Source of the DNA: a virus | Lineage: Duplodnaviria; Caudoviricetes | Length of the DNA: 45,629 nucleotides | Strand: one strand, 5' to 3' | IMG/VR virus record: IMGVR_UViG_3300017716_002065 | Coordinates: 1 to 45,629 of that record | The notes under the pieces: model-generated | Databases searched by the model: none | The model's input: the letters and a program-made list of their open reading frames with translations, nothing else | Told to the model about the DNA's origin: nothing | Made by a program: the position numbers and the translations under genes | In this document: piece after piece, positions 25,433 to 38,564 of the stretch | How the letters are laid out: every line of letters starts with the position of its first letter | Position numbering within the stretch: the stretch's first letter is position 1

Positions 25433-27046
25433 TTAACTCATCCATCCTGATCCGACTGGCGGAAGCCCTGGAATACGCGGCAGGTTATTAAAAGGTTCTC
25501 CGCTTGTACCCATTACCGAAGGCTGGTTCAATGGCTGGACGTATTCGTCTGCAAAGGTGAGCCCGACCGCATCAAACAAGTCATGGGAGCGGCCCTTTAG
25601 CTGGGCTTTGGGGACAAGATGGAAGTCGCCCTCTTGATTGATAAACTTGATTTGCGGGGCGCAGAAGTCAGCCGTGATTTCTTCCTCATCGGGAAGGTCC
25701 AAGCCTTCAACCGACTGAAGGGCTTCCTTGACCCGCCACGCCATTTCAGCCTTCCGGTTCTTCGGCCCAGGCTTGTCCGGTCGCCTCAGTTTCGCTTGGC
25801 TCGTCGACCCAAAATTCACGGGCCGAATCAGGGTAGAATACTTGGGGTCGTCTCTCAGGGCGGATGAAAGGGCGTCCCCGTTCCCGCCCCCGCCCGCGTC
25901 GATGAAAACTCGGTCTGGCTTTTGGTCCTCGATAACCGCTTTTAGCCATTCCAAGCCTTCATTGAATTTAACTTTGGTGCGGTATTTTACGGATTTAACC
26001 TTCCTACCCTGCCTAACCGCGATAGTGAAGCGGTCCCCGCCCATCGAAGCCGGGTCAACGCCAATGACCACGGCACCGTGGGGCAGAATGTCGGCGTTAC
26101 GCGCCCGCTGAACATCCACAGGGGAGATAAAGGCGTCTTCTTCGACTGCGTTAAAAGCATCCGCCACTGATAGCGGGAACTCGCGGCTCCAGCGAATAAT
26201 GTTGCGTGGGCCATTCATCTTCCTCCGACGCCAGTAAATTTGCCCAAGCGTCAGGCCGTTAATCTCGTGAAGCTCGGCCTCGGACGGGAAAGCCTCGTTA
26301 TCGCGCTCCTGCTGAAGCTCGAAATCTGCTGGCGGCTCGCTGTAGCAGCCTGGGTCTTTGTTCCACGGGACGAAAATCAGTTTGTATTCGGACGCGCCCT
26401 TGAGGCAATCCATGCAGCGTTCAAAGAAAGGGCCAAAGGGCTGTTTAGCCGTTCCTTCCAGCCAAATCTCAGTACCCGGCATGTCGGAGACGCAGTTTCC
26501 GATGCCTGACATTTGCTCTTCAAGGTTGTCGATTACCCCCGCTTCGGAAAGGTGTAGAAAGTTGATCTCGTCACCTCGGCCAGCATCTTCGGTTTCTGAT
26601 GAATAAATGGCGTAGCGCGAGTCCATGCCGTCAAACTCAAGTCCCTTAATGTTAGCTGTCCCCAGGGGTGGGGCAAAGGGATTGTTGTCCTGAAAACGGC
26701 GCACGATGCGGTACAGTGCATTAACCGATGATCCCAAGTGCGCCATGATTGCCACGGAGACGCCGTGATTCATTGATGCGCGGTGATAGCCACGTCCCAG
26801 GATGTAGGTGGAAGCGCCTGCGCGGCGGTATTTCAAGGTGATCGCGCGCACAACGCCGGTTTCAGCCTTTTGCTTCTCGGCGGCGTTATGGATGATATGC
26901 TGGGTCGGCGTAAACGTAAGGGGAGCTAGCTTGCCACCCTTGTCGCGGAGTTTCAACGCCTGATCGCCAAACTGCGGATAATTCTGCCGCAGGAACGCCA
27001 AGCGCCTAAGTGCGGAATCTTCTCCGGAGTGCGGGGTAATCAGCAA
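25433..27046 (-). CDS. terL: Terminase large subunit
   Basis: LKYRRAGAST Walker A, LHLSEA Walker B, EGTA, REFP...AF, IGVDPA..GGD, DAGGGG, SHDLFDAVGLTF; TTG start with AAGAGGG RBS. Confidence 0.92.
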   Translation of the reverse strand: MLITPHSGEDSALRRLAFLRQNYPQFGDQALKLRDKGGKLAPLTFTPTQHIIHNAAEKQKAETGVVRAITLKYRRAGASTYILGRGYHRASMNHGVSVAIMAHLGSSVNALYRIVRRFQDNNPFAPPLGTANIKGLEFDGMDSRYAIYSSETEDAGRGDEINFLHLSEAGVIDNLEEQMSGIGNCVSDMPGTEIWLEGTAKQPFGPFFERCMDCLKGASEYKLIFVPWNKDPGCYSEPPADFELQQERDNEAFPSEAELHEINGLTLGQIYWRRRKMNGPRNIIRWSREFPLSVADAFNAVEEDAFISPVDVQRARNADILPHGAVVIGVDPASMGGDRFTIAVRQGRKVKSVKYRTKVKFNEGLEWLKAVIEDQKPDRVFIDAGGGGNGDALSSALRDDPKYSTLIRPVNFGSTSQAKLRRPDKPGPKNRKAEMAWRVKEALQSVEGLDLPDEEEITADFCAPQIKFINQEGDFHLVPKAQLKGRSHDLFDAVGLTFADEYVQPLNQPSVMGTSGEPFNNLPRIPGLPPVGSGWMS

Positions 27047-27063: not shown

Positions 27064-27132
27064 AGAGGCGCGGTCTCGCAAGCGGTGGTCAAAGCCGCAA
27101 CCGGGGGAGGGAACCGGGGAAACCGCGCCTCT
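27064..27132 (-). promoter_or_regulatory. Structured 5' leader of the terL/late operon
   Basis: 11-bp perfect inverted repeat AGAGGCGCGGT (27064-74 / 27122-32), extendable with G-U on the minus strand; ends next to the RBS. Confidence 0.5.
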
Positions 27133-27134
27133 TG

Positions 27135-27201
27135 TATTTTTCTGACCATTGTTGATTCTGTCGTCAATGGGGCTTGCGAAAGTTTTTTTTGGGTCTATGT
27201 T
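27135..27201. promoter_or_regulatory. Back-to-back putative sigma70 promoters
   Basis: Minus: TTGACG-N17-CAGAAA toward terL; plus: TTGCGA-N16-TATGTT toward the structured RNA. Confidence 0.45.
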
Positions 27202-27206
27202 CACTC

Positions 27207-27487
27207 GCTCACGCTGGTCGGGATAGGGGTAGTACCTGAAGCCAGCAGCGGCGTGAGGTCTAACGTGTCACTGTGGGATTCCTGCCGACACAACCCCGGT
27301 ACTGAACACCCGAGGGGAAGCACAGGGTGGAGACGCACCAGTCTCCATAAAGTTGGGGTGGACCTACAGGCCGGTGCGGTACTGTAGGGTCTTATGGTCA
27401 TACGGCGGCTCCGTTTAGGGCATGACACGACCTGAAGACATGGTGACTAACCCGGTTTCGGCTGGGATTAGTCGTACTATGTCTTCA
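27207..27487 (+). ncRNA. Candidate ~280-nt structured non-coding RNA of unknown class
   Basis: Seven nested helices, several G-U pairs valid only on the plus strand, UUCG-capped 3' hairpin, promoter immediately upstream, no credible ORF. Confidence 0.6.
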
Positions 27488-27607
27488 ATCACCGACTCAC
27501 CATTTAGAACATTTACGAAGTAAGGTAGTATAGAATCTACAGCTTAAGTTGGAATACAACATAGAGCTTTATGTTTCGCGGAATTCGTTTTGTAAGTAAC
27601 ACAGGCA

Positions 27608-27641: not shown

Positions 27642-27974
27642 ATGGAGGCTTTTTTGCTGACGAAACCGCCCAAACCACCCGTTATTGTTGCTGGCGATCC
27701 GCTAGCCATGTCGCGCATCAACAAGAAGCATATTAACGATGCTTTTGAGCGCATTGGTGGCCTGGATCGTCTGGCTGACGAAGCCGATAAAGACCCGAAG
27801 TGGTTTATCGAAAAAGTCTGGGTAAAGACCATCCAGCCCGAGAAAATCGAGATTGCACGAGAGAAAACCGTCGCAGAGCTTCTGGCTGAGCTAGACGCCG
27901 CGATGGAGAACAAAACACCACAAATCGAGGGACAAGTGGTTTATGACACTGACTTTGAAGAAAACAAAGACTGA
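27642..27974 (+). CDS. Putative terminase small subunit-like protein
   Basis: DAFERIGGLDRLA...DPKWF...KTIQP motif of a small-terminase-like family; lies next to terL. Confidence 0.55.
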   Translation: MEAFLLTKPPKPPVIVAGDPLAMSRINKKHINDAFERIGGLDRLADEADKDPKWFIEKVWVKTIQPEKIEIAREKTVAELLAELDAAMENKTPQIEGQVVYDTDFEENKD

Positions 27975-28260: not shown

Positions 28261-28418
28261 TCATCCTCTGGCGTGCTCGCGGCATCAGATTCAACAACCA
28301 TATGGATGCCTGCCACACGAGTCTTGACGATCTTTATAGTATTGGCGTCTGGCATGATTGCAGCGGCTATGGTCGCGGCAAAATAATCGGAATGCATTGG
28401 GAAAAGGGTAGACTATGA
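28257..28418 (+). CDS. 53-aa Trp/His/Cys-rich microprotein (MIILWRARGIRFNNHMDACH...MHWEKGRL)
   Basis: ATGA overlaps with both neighbours. Confidence 0.55.
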   Translation: MIILWRARGIRFNNHMDACHTSLDDLYSIGVWHDCSGYGRGKIIGMHWEKGRL

Positions 28419-29845
28419 CTAACTTCAACGAAATGTGCGAAGCGTGGCGCGGTCGCCTGATCTACATGGCCAAGAGCCGCCGTTTCATCGACATGCAGAC
28501 GAAAATGCACCGTCACGGCGTTGGTGCTGCGGTGCCTATCCTGGTCGGCATGTTCCCGGATGCAGATAACGTTGAGCGTCTGGCTCGTGGCTTCCTGGCT
28601 GACAGGCTTTTCCACAGCGTTGAGACTGAGGACTATTTTCCCGGCGAAGGCCAGATCGTGGAACGTGACGGCGCGCTGTTTGCGAACACATGGGCTGGCT
28701 GGCACGCAGAGGATGGCGACGTTGAACCCTTCACAGATTTCCTTAATGCACTCTTTCGCCGCTCCAAAGTGGACGGAGAGCGGCTACTCTCGATGGTGGC
28801 GTTTCGGGCTAGAAACCCTACTACTCATGTGCCTTTTGCAGCCGTACTCAGTGGGCCTGAGGGTGACAACACACTGGCTCTCAACGCGCTAGAATCTGCC
28901 TTCTCCCCTTACGCAGCGTATGTCAGCCCCAACCACGTCAGGAACGCCTATCGCTCCTGGATTCGGGACGCAAGCCTAGTTGTGGTCCAGACTGGCGACG
29001 AAATGTTCCAGAACTGGGCGGCGCGCGATGCGTTTACCCAGATCGTAACGTCGCCTACGGACGTAAAGTCTTCCAATTTTGCCGCGACAAGCCAGCGTCA
29101 CGACCGCAACCAGTTTTTTGCGATCATGAACACGTCCCCCGGCGCTGACGCCCAGGTTCCCAGCCGCTCGTGCTATTATCTCGTGTCAACCGAGGCTGTG
29201 CCGGAAGCTGTAGCCGATAAGCTACGAAAATTCATTTCTGAGGGCGGTGGCCGTAAAATCATGGCGTGGCTTCTCAAGCGCGACCTAACCGGCTTCAAGA
29301 TGCCCAACGAGGCACCTGAAACCGGCGCGTCGTCCATTATCAGGCAGGAGCAGTTGCTTCCGTTTGAGCGCCTTGCGGAAGACATGCTGGAGTCGCCGGT
29401 CAACCGGGTCGCCGTATGGGTCAGTGAGTCCCTGGCCTGGGCCAACGCAATGCTGGAGAAGCAGGAGCGCGGCCAGATCGTCGGAAAGCAGGACGTGTGG
29501 CGCGCTGAACAGGTAATTGCTACGCTGCCCGAGATCACAATCCGCCCGTGGTATACGGCTGAAGAAATCTCGCTGATGTTCCCGCACGTACAGACCGCTC
29601 GTGTCGAAAAGCACCTGCGGCCAGCCTGTGTGAGCAAGGAACTGCGCTCAGGAGGGCTCCCCTATCTGTCACCCACAGATAGTCCAAAAGGCTTTGTGCG
29701 AAACGGCGTCCACAAGCACTATTTTATCGTCTCTGAACACGAACGCTGGCTTGACCCGCTCACGCAAGAGCAGTTTGATGCCGAGTGGGCAAAATTCCCG
29801 AATTACCGCGAATATGCCGAACAAATCAATTCCAGAGGCACCTAA
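28415..29845 (+). CDS. SF3/DUF5906-type helicase-like protein with degenerate Walker motifs
   Basis: Y.PG..., NTWAGW...GDVEPFxDFL..LF, RARNP, AAVLSGPEG, LLKRDLTGF...AP.T layout of phage primase-helicase C-terminal domains. Confidence 0.6.
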   Translation: MTNFNEMCEAWRGRLIYMAKSRRFIDMQTKMHRHGVGAAVPILVGMFPDADNVERLARGFLADRLFHSVETEDYFPGEGQIVERDGALFANTWAGWHAEDGDVEPFTDFLNALFRRSKVDGERLLSMVAFRARNPTTHVPFAAVLSGPEGDNTLALNALESAFSPYAAYVSPNHVRNAYRSWIRDASLVVVQTGDEMFQNWAARDAFTQIVTSPTDVKSSNFAATSQRHDRNQFFAIMNTSPGADAQVPSRSCYYLVSTEAVPEAVADKLRKFISEGGGRKIMAWLLKRDLTGFKMPNEAPETGASSIIRQEQLLPFERLAEDMLESPVNRVAVWVSESLAWANAMLEKQERGQIVGKQDVWRAEQVIATLPEITIRPWYTAEEISLMFPHVQTARVEKHLRPACVSKELRSGGLPYLSPTDSPKGFVRNGVHKHYFIVSEHERWLDPLTQEQFDAEWAKFPNYREYAEQINSRGT

Positions 29846-36409: not shown

Positions 36410-37696
36410 ATGACCGCTCTTCACCTCTCCGAACAAGTCATCCACGGACGCCCGCCGCTGGTTCTTACCGGCTCCATGACGTTTGATCACCGCCACAAGC
36501 TCCCGGCGCTGGGCGGGCGCTATAACCCCGACACGAACCCGAAACAGTGGGAAATGCCCGACACGCAAGAGGTCCGCGATTACTGGCAATTCATGCTGGA
36601 ATGCGAGCGCAACGCGCCTCCGAAGCGTGGTCGTGGTCGCCCCCGGAAATACAACGCTGACGGCACCCCCATTGAGCCCCAGCAGGAAGCCCCGGGAGGC
36701 GGCATGCTCATTGGCGACAAGGACGGATATATCCTGCCCAACCCGGGCGAATATCACCGCGTGCCTCAAGAGCCCGACGGCGAGGACAAGGCGCAGCAGA
36801 TCGCTCGCCTGCTGCGTGAGTTGTCAGGCGGCAAGGCGCAGGTTGATGAGTCCGAAGTGCGGGCAATCGTTGAGTCGTATATGGAGGCTCTTGGGGCTCA
36901 AATAGACGACATTAAAACGGCGCTCGAAGGCAAGAAAACCGAACGCCTTGAGATCATGCAAGGCGGGCAGAATATCCGGGTCCTTGAAGGTCTCACGCAT
37001 GCCAAGCTTTCGACGCTGATTCGCTGCCTCTCAGTGGGTCTCAACGTTTGGCTGTCTGGCCCCATGGGCGCGGGCAAGACTCGCGGTGCAGAACAGGCGG
37101 CAGAGGCGCTGGGGCTCTCGTTCGGCATGCATGGCGCAATGACGATGGCGTATGAGTTGACGGGCTTTGTGGACGCCTCCGGGCGCTACCATGACACGCC
37201 ATTCGTGCGGGCTTTCCGGGATGGCGGACTCGTCCTTCTCGATGAGATCGACGCGGGCTCTAACGAGGCGCTCCTCGCTCTCAATGGCGCTCTGGCAAAT
37301 GGCGTGATGTGCCTCCCCAATGGCCAGAACATCCGCAAGCATGCTGACTTCCGTTGCATCGGCGCGGGCAATACGTTCGGCGGGGGCGCGACCCACGAAT
37401 ATATTGGCCGCACGAAAATTGATGCCGCTTTCTTGGATCGCTTTGGAGCCAAGATTGCATGGGGCTATGACGCCGCTCTGGAACTGGCCATCGCCTCCAA
37501 CAACGCATGGACGGCGCGCGTACAGGAAGCCCGCACGAAAGCAGCAGTGGCGGGGCTCAAGGTCGCGATAACCCCGCGCGCCTCTCAGGCTGGCGCTCTC
37601 CTCATTGATGGCGCGGGCTTCACCCCTCAGGAAGCGGCGGAACTGACCTACCTCGCCACGCTCTCCGCAGACCAGCGCAAGCTCATCGGAGCCTAA
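36410..37696 (+). CDS. MoxR/CbbQ/CobS-like AAA+ ATPase with an N-terminal AT-hook
   Basis: GPMGAGKT, LLDEID, AGNTFG.G....YIGR..IDAAFLDRF; KRGRGRPRK. Confidence 0.85.
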   Translation: MTALHLSEQVIHGRPPLVLTGSMTFDHRHKLPALGGRYNPDTNPKQWEMPDTQEVRDYWQFMLECERNAPPKRGRGRPRKYNADGTPIEPQQEAPGGGMLIGDKDGYILPNPGEYHRVPQEPDGEDKAQQIARLLRELSGGKAQVDESEVRAIVESYMEALGAQIDDIKTALEGKKTERLEIMQGGQNIRVLEGLTHAKLSTLIRCLSVGLNVWLSGPMGAGKTRGAEQAAEALGLSFGMHGAMTMAYELTGFVDASGRYHDTPFVRAFRDGGLVLLDEIDAGSNEALLALNGALANGVMCLPNGQNIRKHADFRCIGAGNTFGGGATHEYIGRTKIDAAFLDRFGAKIAWGYDAALELAIASNNAWTARVQEARTKAAVAGLKVAITPRASQAGALLIDGAGFTPQEAAELTYLATLSADQRKLIGA

Positions 37697-37700
37697 GCCA

Positions 37701-38564
37701 ATGACCTACCAAATCAGAACCGGCATGCCTCCAGAGCGCACTAAGGGCTACACAGCCCTTATCTGCGAGAGCCTTTCCGACCTCGCCCAGTATCTCGACG
37801 ACAACGAAAAGGCAGGCTCCCTCATTCATTCCGACTGGGGCTTGCGTGACGTTGCCCGGGCATCCCTCCACACTGGCGACTCTGCCCTTGTGCAGCGGGC
37901 GGAGAAGCTCCTAACGAAGATGGAAGCCCCTGAGATCATGGGCCAGTCTAATCGCTCCGAGCTAGTCTCCAGCGTCTCAGGATGCTTTGCCGATGTTCCG
38001 GCGTACCTGTCGGGCGCTCCTAATTCGATGCGCCTTAAGCGTCGGCGCATTGAGCTAAAGCCCCTCAGGATCGTTGTGGACGTGACCAGCAGTGCGAACG
38101 TCAACGATGACACGCTGGAACGGCGCGGCATTGCCACGCTGGCCCTTCTCCGCCGCTTGGAGACAGCGGGCTACAGCGTCGAGCTATGGCTTGTCGAGGC
38201 TCCTAACAGCGCCCCGGGCTTTACGTTCGTCCGCATGGAGACCGGCCCCATGGACCTTGCCCGCTCATGCTGGGCGCTCGCATCGCAGCAGTTTGCCCGG
38301 GAGTGCGCTTTCTCCGCATGCGCTACTGTGGCCAAGGGCAGGGACGGCGCGTGGCCATGGTTCAACTCACGCTGGCATGGCTTCCCCAAGGCTCAGCAGC
38401 AGACGTTCGCCATGGCGCTGGAGTGCGAGCCAGAGTCCATCCTGCACATCCCGGCGCTGTATAACTCAGTCGAGGCTCAGCCCTTCACGACGGACGCCGG
38501 GGCGGTCAAATGGCTGAACGATCAATACGCGGCGGCAATCGCCCGAACAGAGGAGTCGAACTAA
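37701..38564 (+). CDS. VWA-like partner protein of the AAA ATPase
   Basis: G...DVPAYLSG.P.SM; IVVDVTSSANV degenerate MIDAS; RG..LAL...LE.AGY.VELW. Confidence 0.7.
   Translation: MTYQIRTGMPPERTKGYTALICESLSDLAQYLDDNEKAGSLIHSDWGLRDVARASLHTGDSALVQRAEKLLTKMEAPEIMGQSNRSELVSSVSGCFADVPAYLSGAPNSMRLKRRRIELKPLRIVVDVTSSANVNDDTLERRGIATLALLRRLETAGYSVELWLVEAPNSAPGFTFVRMETGPMDLARSCWALASQQFARECAFSACATVAKGRDGAWPWFNSRWHGFPKAQQQTFAMALECEPESILHIPALYNSVEAQPFTTDAGAVKWLNDQYAAAIARTEESN

What the first reader, a model, noticed from the sequence alone, without database searches (positions are those of the whole stretch)
27207..27487. ~280-nt highly structured RNA candidate between divergent terminase genes
Seen in sequence: P1 CTCAC-GCTGGT-CGGG / CCTG-GCCAGC-GTGAG (27208-27257). 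A long-range P2, AGGTC..GTGTCA (27256-70) / TGACAC-GACCT (27423-33), closes a multiloop. The multiloop holds CTGTG/CACAG (27271/27321), TGGAGAC/GTCTCCA (27328-47), GACCTACAG/CTGTAGG-GTC (27361-91) and ACGG/CCGT. A 3' hairpin of about 24 bp (27433-27487) is capped by UUCG. The loop GCACC (27335-39) is complementary to the loop GGTGC (27373-77), suggesting a kissing-loop pseudoknot. At least six G-U pairs work only on the plus strand, and a TTGCGA-N16-TATGTT promoter would start transcription almost exactly at P1. It matches no tRNA, tmRNA, intron or ribozyme core I recognise. Inference: a new phage ncRNA, possibly packaging-associated (phi29 pRNA also uses loop-loop kissing) or a protein-sponge/anti-defence RNA.
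Basis: partly seen in the sequence, partly recalled or inferred. Interest (0 to 1): 0.8.

Follow-up and report, generated by a model that had tools for sequence, protein, structure and literature searches.

The report
Knotted phage RNA with twin tags
This phage encodes a predicted 300-base, heavily knotted RNA, a distant and much longer relative of a catalogued RNA family with no known job, and it carries one 8-base tag twice, which likely lets the new RNA grab its own DNA during transcription and would open a start site for DNA copying.

Summary
Real, but not a new family and not shown to be a packaging RNA. The element (about 27207-27510, + strand) is a diverged, 3'-extended relative of Rfam RF02932 'Betaproteobacteria-1' (20.3 bits, below the 49.4 cut-off). 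A profile of 28 homologues built without the window hits it end to end (E 1e-17). Homologues occur in phages, prophages and a plasmid, in three bacterial phyla. The RNA runs 23 nt past the reported end. Two conserved sites flank the 3' hairpin; each is followed by the same lineage-specific 8-mer, which co-changes in both copies, has no partner in the RNA, and mismatches as G-first/A-second (23 v 2). That fits pairing of the first copy with the template DNA strand of the second. Best guess (0.3): a ColE1-RNA-II-like R-loop starter; pausing control, ribozyme and decoy remain open. No expression data. The scan noted this family before on at least 8 other genomes.

The parts
27174..27201 (+). Predicted sigma70-type promoter (-35 at 27174-79, -10 at 27196-201, 16-nt spacer); start predicted near 27207
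   Evidence: Sequence; same position relative to P1 in L138, L143, L126; below the consensus-scan threshold
27207..27510 (+). Predicted non-coding RNA, long form of the Betaproteobacteria-1 family; single copy in this genome
   Evidence: Profile built without the window hits 27209-27506, 58.7 bits, E 9.7e-18; RF02932 27207-27328, 20.3 bits
27208..27257 (+). P1: P1a 27208-16/27249-57, P1b 27217-20/27243-46, small inserted hairpin 27226-28/27235-37
   Evidence: 95% of cells paired, 4 of 8 pairs with two-sided changes
27246..27273 (+). Pseudoknot 1: 27246-48 with 27271-73 (27246 is shared with P1b, a possible base triple)
   Evidence: Invariant in 38 of 38 aligned for two of the pairs; compensatory variants in L126, phage Shpa and plasmid pC
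27265..27291 (+). P2 (27265-69/27287-91); its loop carries three back-to-back pairing segments
   Evidence: 86.8% and 89.3% paired, 4-5 of 5 pairs with two-sided changes
27280..27327 (+). Pseudoknot 2: 27280-84 with 27323-27, around P3 (27294-97/27314-17)
   Evidence: 41 of 42 members reach 4 bp or more, mean 5.36 v 3.15 shuffled, 0 of 5000
27328..27391 (+). P4 (27328-34/27341-47), conserved AAGU linker (27350-55), P5 (27361-69/27382-91); kissing loop 27335-39 with 27373-77
27397..27426 (+). P7 (27397-401/27422-26) displaying site 1 (27407-13) and tag copy X1 (27414-21); GG:CC pair 27404-05/27411-12; predicted pseudoknot 27298-300 with 27408-10
   Evidence: P7 88% paired, GG:CC 28 of 28, pseudoknot 91.7% with one-sided changes only
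27433..27487 (+). P6, long 3' hairpin (24 bp, -31.3 kcal/mol)
27496..27510 (+). Site 2 (27496-502; 27496-99 predicted to pair with 27274-77, leaving CCA) and tag copy X2 (27503-10)
   Evidence: the pairing columns were fixed by my search pattern, so their invariance is not independent evidence
25433..27046 (-). Terminase large subunit gene (flank)
   Evidence: phrog_2, E 1e-24
27642..27974 (+). 110-aa helical phage protein, possible terminase small subunit (unverified flank)
   Evidence: 21 homologues; no family match; unnamed viral clusters, DUF5681 as a weak lead; low-confidence all-helix model, pLDDT 64
28415..29845 (+). Likely SF3 helicase (DUF5906), 0.9 kb downstream, kept beside the element in this clade
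   Evidence: Atlas score 0.98, 10 of 10 best hits share the family

Best explanation
It is a predicted 300-nt RNA of the extended Betaproteobacteria-1 family that likely acts on its own gene while being transcribed: the folded core would hold tag copy X1 beside RNA polymerase so that X1 pairs with the template DNA strand of copy X2, starting an R-loop that would open or prime a phage replication origin, as ColE1 RNA II does. SHOWN: the fold (covariation), the two sites, the exact 8-nt repeat, its co-change, its one-way G/A bias and the lack of a partner inside the RNA. INFERRED, step by step: (1) transcription from the upstream box to beyond 27510; (2) the 4-bp helix 27274-77/27496-99 forms when the polymerase reaches the end of X2, which leaves CCA plus 8 nt = 11 nt, the spacing of a pause hairpin in the RNA exit channel; (3) as X2 leaves the 8-9-bp RNA-DNA hybrid, the spare copy X1, already outside the enzyme, captures the freed template bases before the DNA re-closes (rG-dT wobble allowed); (4) RNA made afterwards re-anneals to the purine-rich, A+T-rich DNA behind X2; (5) RNase H/Pol I or the phage helicase-primase uses the R-loop. 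I put steps 2-3 at about 0.5 and a replication output, given them, at about 0.6.
For: Repeat is 8 nt with a sharp edge: identity by position 18,20,20,20,20,21,19,19 then 8,7,8,2 of 21 clusters, mean 7.5 of 8 v 3.0 shuffled, 0 of 5000, from a scan whose pattern held neither tag nor P1; 31-36 of 37 then 15 or fewer. It is kept by selection: 55 co-changes v 20 one-copy differences over 18 nearest-neighbour pairs. Mismatches are G in X1/A in X2 23 times, the reverse twice (52 clusters, binomial p 2e-5), as expected if the partner is the exact complement of X2. No such complement in the RNA (best of 1000 anchor/offset tests: 2.7 of 8 pairs, over X2 itself), none enriched in 188 kb of flank, and the tag is not palindromic. 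The hybrid holds 8-9 nt and re-annealing of nascent RNA is a recognised route to R-loops (PMC3977913, passages); a pause hairpin forms 11 nt from the 3' end (10.1101/2021.01.27.428476, passage); ColE1 opens its origin by a persistent hybrid of a structured non-coding RNA (PMC5043065, section 10). The 20 nt after X2 are 63% purine and 62% A+T (40 members). The RNA sits directly behind helicase-primase genes in both cultured carriers and in L176, L192, L194, L201, L208, L226, L403, and beside initiator genes in L367, L378, L390, L395. In L134 the slot holds three 29-nt repeats instead. Either orientation occurs between the same genes, which suits an origin better than an operon leader.
Against: No transcript, R-loop or origin activity was observed; nothing here tests steps 1-5. 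Many members lie before packaging genes (L184, L190, L273, L306, L359, L360, L364, L365, L366, L409) or after integrases (L236, L245, L285, L307). No partner protein is shared: the commonest family is in 8 of 63 loci; the primase family is in 8 of 25 carriers v 2 of 24 controls, the helicase in 9 of 25 v 4 of 24, so most carriers lack both, and carriers are not independent. Plasmid pC has its own RepA 16 kb away. The GC-skew origin proposed for Shpa is at 0/38 kb, not at the RNA (33 kb) (PMC5135824, passage). The other wobble the model allows (U in X1/C in X2) is rare (2 cases). The 4-bp helix to site 2 has no two-sided change to support it beyond my reading of two variants. The promoter is not family-wide. 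The ColE1 detail that an upstream G tract pairs with the template strand near the origin is recalled, not seen in any call.
Confidence: 0.3

Rival explanations
1. Same molecular step, transcriptional output: the nascent RNA engages RNA polymerase at X2 (pause, release, or put-like antitermination) and sets read-through into the genes behind it.
For: The 11-nt spacing and 8-nt tag fit polymerase geometry. Many members are followed within tens of bases by a co-oriented gene and lie at junctions of replication and packaging modules. Nascent RNAs such as HK022 put can suppress pausing (PMC9974457, passage). No intrinsic terminator follows in the window.
Against: It faces terL in five relatives but the other operon in the window, and is absent from L134; downstream genes share no function; put is not known to me to use a duplicated tag (recalled).
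Confidence: 0.2
2. A ribozyme with two interchangeable docking sites (CC-purine-tag) that cuts, joins or circularises the 89-nt unit between them, or makes a CCA 3' end.
For: Compact core with five crossing helices and many invariant bases across three phyla, the profile that PMC5737381 (passage) links with demanding biochemical tasks; both sites end CC-purine; an invariant GG could take either CC; a circle junction would recreate site 2.
Against: No guide for the tag in the RNA; site 1 ends in A in several members and the tag is one base out of register in three; no match to any Rfam ribozyme or intron; it is intergenic, so nothing needs splicing.
Confidence: 0.2
3. A trans-acting RNA that shows two identical handles to a dimeric protein or a partner RNA (decoy, antitoxin or anti-defence RNA).
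For: Own promoter in this clade; patchy presence and either orientation; a weak consensus inside the tag (C at 6 in 24 of 37, A at 7 in 29 of 37).
Against: Tags change freely but always together, with a sharp 8-nt edge and a one-way G/A bias, which suits base pairing with the complement of X2; X2 would lie at the unprotected end; no linked protein; no third copy or complement above chance in the window (7 v 5.0 expected).
Confidence: 0.2
4. Template for a reverse transcriptase that jumps between the two tags (rolling-circle cDNA, DRT2- or telomerase-like).
For: Scaffold plus a region bounded by a direct repeat is that layout (recalled).
Against: No reverse transcriptase among 97 and 90 neighbouring proteins or 40 window proteins scanned; a jump from X1 back to X2 would tolerate A/G, the opposite of the observed bias.
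Confidence: 0.04
5. Prohead/packaging RNA like phi29 pRNA.
For: Lies beside terL here and before packaging genes in about ten other loci; has a covarying loop-loop pair.
Against: Absent from the closest relative; present in integrative elements and a plasmid without capsid genes in its annotation; behind primase in cultured phages; no Rfam pRNA match; does not explain the tags.
Confidence: 0.03

Closest known systems
Rfam RF02932, Betaproteobacteria-1 RNA (Gene; sRNA; 120 positions; function unknown)
   Same: P1 with GUCGG..ACGGCAG, P2 loop CUGUGGG, P3 region; whole-model match to the window; 7 of 20 loci from my scans pass its cut-off and share the same core and the two 3' sites.
   Different: Window scores 20.3 v cut-off 49.4; the long form adds P4, P5, their kiss, P7 and a longer 3' hairpin; the Rfam model stops before both sites and tags; the family is not confined to Betaproteobacteria.
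ColE1 RNA II primer (works-like analogy)
   Same: Structured non-coding RNA from its own promoter whose fold drives a persistent hybrid with its template (PMC5043065, section 10); an upstream tract repeating the sequence near the origin (recalled).
   Different: No sequence or Rfam similarity; about 300 v 550 nt; free-sequence 8-mer rather than a G tract; no antisense RNA I identified; hybrid formation untested.
HK022 put RNA and pause hairpins
   Same: Nascent RNA acting on the polymerase that made it; 11-nt spacing.
   Different: Far larger and pseudoknotted; duplicated tag; no activity shown.
phi29 pRNA
   Same: Loop-loop pairing; near packaging genes in this phage.
   Different: No Rfam match; dispensable in a close relative; found away from packaging genes.
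Large ornate phage RNAs (ROOL, GOLLD, raiA)
   Same: Multi-junction, multi-pseudoknot RNAs of unknown function (PMC5737381, passages).
   Different: No Rfam match; no tRNA in this genome; different size and motifs.

Membership tests
RF02932 Betaproteobacteria-1 | Score at or above the gathering cut-off (49.4 bits) | tested here: not met
   20.3 bits, E 0.2; none at cut-off in the window. It is therefore reported as a relative, not a catalogued member.
RF02932 Betaproteobacteria-1 | Conserved core motifs in order, with stems P1 and P2 | tested here: met
   Model positions 1-120 aligned; same motifs in loci that pass the cut-off; covariation.
RF02932 Betaproteobacteria-1 | Third stem and short 3' part of the Rfam model | tested here: not met
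   That part is skipped in the window's alignment; the long form has P3-P4-P5 there.
Extended (long-form) family defined here | Full-length match, five crossing helices, two sites with a repeated 8-mer | tested here: met
   E 9.7e-18 with a profile lacking the window; 0 of 120 loci from a looser pattern hit; helices; tags match at 6 of 8, both differences G/A.
ColE1-type primer RNA | Homology to RNA II or RNA I | tested here: not met
   No Rfam match at E up to 10 other than RF02932.
ColE1-type primer RNA | Persistent RNA-DNA hybrid cut by RNase H to prime DNA synthesis | not testable with these tools
   Needs in vitro transcription and replication assays.
Group I/II intron, RNase P, small self-cleaving ribozymes | Catalytic-core match | tested here: not met
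   No Rfam match.
tRNA/tmRNA | Cloverleaf or tRNA-like domain | tested here: not met
   ARAGORN 0 genes; only a CCA after a short predicted helix.
phi29-type pRNA | Required and linked with packaging genes | tested here: not met
   Absent in L134; unlinked in Shpa, AP1 and pC.
RT-associated ncRNA (retron, DRT, DGR) | Adjacent reverse transcriptase gene | tested here: not met
   None among the neighbours scanned; I scanned the nearest long ORFs, not every ORF.

The most novel reading that the evidence does not exclude
A widespread class of phage and mobile-element RNAs that nucleate an R-loop on their own gene with a freely programmable 8-nt internal guide, held in place by a five-knot core docked at the polymerase exit channel: a protein-free origin opener (or DNA-guided ribozyme) unrelated to ColE1.
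Probability: 0.3. Interest if true: 0.85.

Novelty: new variant of a known kind. Interest (0 to 1): 0.6.

Why it matters
The catalogued motif covers only the first 120 nt of one short subtype, and my searches found no paper on its function (the supplement of PMC5737381 could not be read and may hold more). The full-length fold, the twin tags and their one-way mismatch bias turn 'function unknown' into three cheap tests, and a cultured phage on an environmental host (Paracoccus phage Shpa) carries the long form under two small ORFs annotated as hypothetical. If the R-loop reading holds, it would show how an RNA fold triggers a persistent hybrid, a step that PMC5043065 calls still speculative even for ColE1, and how phages with helicase-primase but no annotated initiator open their origin.

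Tried and rejected
blastn of the window element and of L138's against cultured phages: no match. Single-sequence nhmmer missed all relatives; they were seen by eye on the opposite strand. Strict and loose window-derived patterns gave nothing or noise. Rfam E-value scans of relatives gave only chance-level hits. A 5' leader pairing with the tag looked plausible in the window and L138 but is not consistent across members. Tag self-pairing rejected. A one-off target-site duplication rejected because both copies keep changing together. Group I intron, RNase P, tmRNA and P1 C4/P4 CI-type antisense readings were considered from memory and dropped for lack of a core match or a same-strand complement. 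GC skew of the window is uninformative. A covariance model of the full length was not built (too long to calibrate); a sequence-only profile was used instead. Sequencing runs: no RNA holder listed. The fold of the 110-aa protein was low-confidence and no fold comparison was obtained, so its identity stays open. A tile scan of folding z-scores with 10-12 shuffles was too noisy to use: two low values did not recur.

Full report
SETTING. The window is a complete 45.5-kb phage genome with terminal repeats, podovirus-like by its portal, head-closure and ejection genes. terL (25433-27046) starts the minus-strand structural arm; a 110-aa gene (27642-27974) starts the plus-strand arm, followed by a likely SF3 helicase. 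There is no tRNA, and no reverse transcriptase among 40 proteins scanned.

OBSERVATION. The quoted sequences are present. The stretch folds better than shuffles on the plus strand (z -3.0, 1 of 200) and less so on the minus strand (z -2.2, 6 of 200), which alone is modest. Rfam gives nothing at cut-off, but in E-value mode the only hit is RF02932 Betaproteobacteria-1 over its whole model at 27207-27328 (20.3 bits, cut-off 49.4, E 0.2).

HOMOLOGUES. Relatives found through the 110-aa protein (10 and 17 loci) keep the divergent layout. L123, L126, L138, L142, L143 and their near-copies carry a similar element in the same gap but on the opposite strand; L134, the closest (TerL 84.5%), has unrelated DNA there with three 29-nt repeats. 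Pattern scans on the core gave 67 viral and 120 genome loci, of which, with the earlier loci, 55 distinct cores passed a stem filter. Of 20 tested, 7 pass the RF02932 cut-off; these are a short subtype. A second scan, with neither P1 nor the tags in its pattern, gave 83 loci in 48 clusters; 21 have a strict P1 motif and 30 a relaxed one, the rest look like chance. A profile of 28 members, window excluded, hits the window once, 27209-27506, E 9.7e-18; it hits 140 of 438 stored loci (training sequences and near-copies included), none of the 120 loci from my first loose pattern, and not L134 or L144. Named hosts fall in Pseudomonadota, Acidobacteriota and Bacteroidota. Paracoccus phage Shpa and plasmid pC carry the long form, Acidovorax phage AP1 the short form.

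STRUCTURE. On 28 members without the window, my 72-pair structure has 82.3% of cells paired v 69.0% shuffled and 39-48% when slid, and 50 pairs with two-sided changes v 37.7 (0 of 500); on 38 with the window, 75.8% v 64.5%. Caveats: the structure was read off members, relatedness inflates the shuffle test, MAFFT misaligns some helices, and columns fixed by my patterns are invariant by construction. Alignment-free tests support the kiss (29 of 42), pseudoknot 2 (41 of 42) and, more weakly, P7 (3.88 v 3.39). Pseudoknot 1 has three compensatory forms; the Shpa and pC variants suggest it is 3 bp, which shortens the helix to site 2 to 4 bp and leaves CCA free (my inference).

THE TWIN TAGS. Site 1 (27407-13) and site 2 (27496-502) flank the 3' hairpin; each is followed by the same 8-mer, which differs between lineages. 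Identity is 7.5 of 8 v 3.0 shuffled with a sharp fall after position 8 (21 clusters); the same holds for 37 members (6 of 43 left out because a site could not be placed or was out of register). Both copies change together (55 v 20). Over 52 clusters, with three mis-parsed and three out-of-register rows left in, mismatches are G/A 23, A/G 2, C/U 4, U/C 2; the window has two G/A. No complement exists in the RNA or is enriched within about 3 kb, and the tag is not palindromic. The one exact complement of X2 that is always on hand is its own template strand.

MECHANISM. The polymerase hybrid is 8-9 nt (PMC3977913, passages) and a pause hairpin forms 11 nt from the 3' end (10.1101/2021.01.27.428476, passage). 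CCA plus X2 is 11 nt. I infer that the core locks onto site 2 as X2 fills the hybrid, and that X1 then captures the template strand as it is released, nucleating an R-loop by re-annealing. ColE1 RNA II opens an origin by a persistent hybrid (PMC5043065, section 10 and passages); that it uses an upstream tract matching the sequence near the origin is recalled only. Context leans to replication but is mixed: directly behind helicase-primase in both cultured phages and seven other loci, beside initiators in four, but before packaging genes in about ten and after integrases in four. Genome-wide linkage is weak (8 of 25 v 2 of 24; 9 of 25 v 4 of 24), pC has its own RepA, and the published skew-based origin of Shpa lies elsewhere (PMC5135824, passages). 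Nothing was measured, so the commitment is 0.3, with pausing/antitermination, ribozyme and decoy at 0.2 each.

KNOWN OR NEW. It is a relative of RF02932 that fails the family's score cut-off and extends it by about 180 nt. Literature searches for the family name, accession and description found nothing on function (listings only). The main text of PMC5737381 does not name the motif (passages); its attribution to that survey is recalled and echoed by earlier notes, and the supplement was unreadable. Earlier agents of this scan reported the family on at least 8 other genomes, one noting a sequence carried twice; I had the repeat before that call. Look-ups for a mechanism in earlier notes returned nothing. 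What this report adds is the measured tag length, the mismatch bias, the exit-channel spacing, a cultured carrier and a direct test.

VERDICT.

Noticed in passing
window 27064-27132, minus strand (leader of terL): A separate hairpin element directly before terL (z -2.3, 4 of 200) with a pyrimidine loop complementary to the ribosome-binding site just behind it; the outer stem and this pairing change in step in L134, L123, L126, L138, L142. Possible translational brake on terL.
   Followed up: partly
window 27093-27105 and 27451-27463: A 13-nt inverted match between the terL-leader region and the 5' arm of P6; relatives L123 and L126 show other partial complementarity between the RNA core and their terL leader. 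Not consistent; may be chance.
   Followed up: no
L134 1012-1164: Three 29-nt repeats with a palindromic core, and C/G runs further on, fill the slot that the RNA occupies in the window; looks like a protein-bound origin or operator module.
   Followed up: partly
L439 4997-5392 (Paracoccus phage Shpa gp47, gp48): Two annotated hypothetical ORFs overlap the RNA; gp47 lies wholly inside it and is probably not a gene.
   Followed up: partly
L126, L157, L233, L404, L258: 10-100 nt after X2: Short tandem or low-complexity repeats follow the second tag in several members; in L123 the run is pyrimidine-rich instead.
   Followed up: no
L248 and L326: Two copies of the core in one assembled Alphaproteobacterial genome, on different contigs.
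   Followed up: no
window 36410-38564: AAA ATPase (CobS-like PHROG) next to a DUF7192 gene, and two helicases of different superfamilies in one small genome (43242-44765 and 28415-29845).
   Followed up: no
window 27571-27586: A short near-perfect palindrome in the A+T-rich stretch between the RNA and the 110-aa gene.
   Followed up: no
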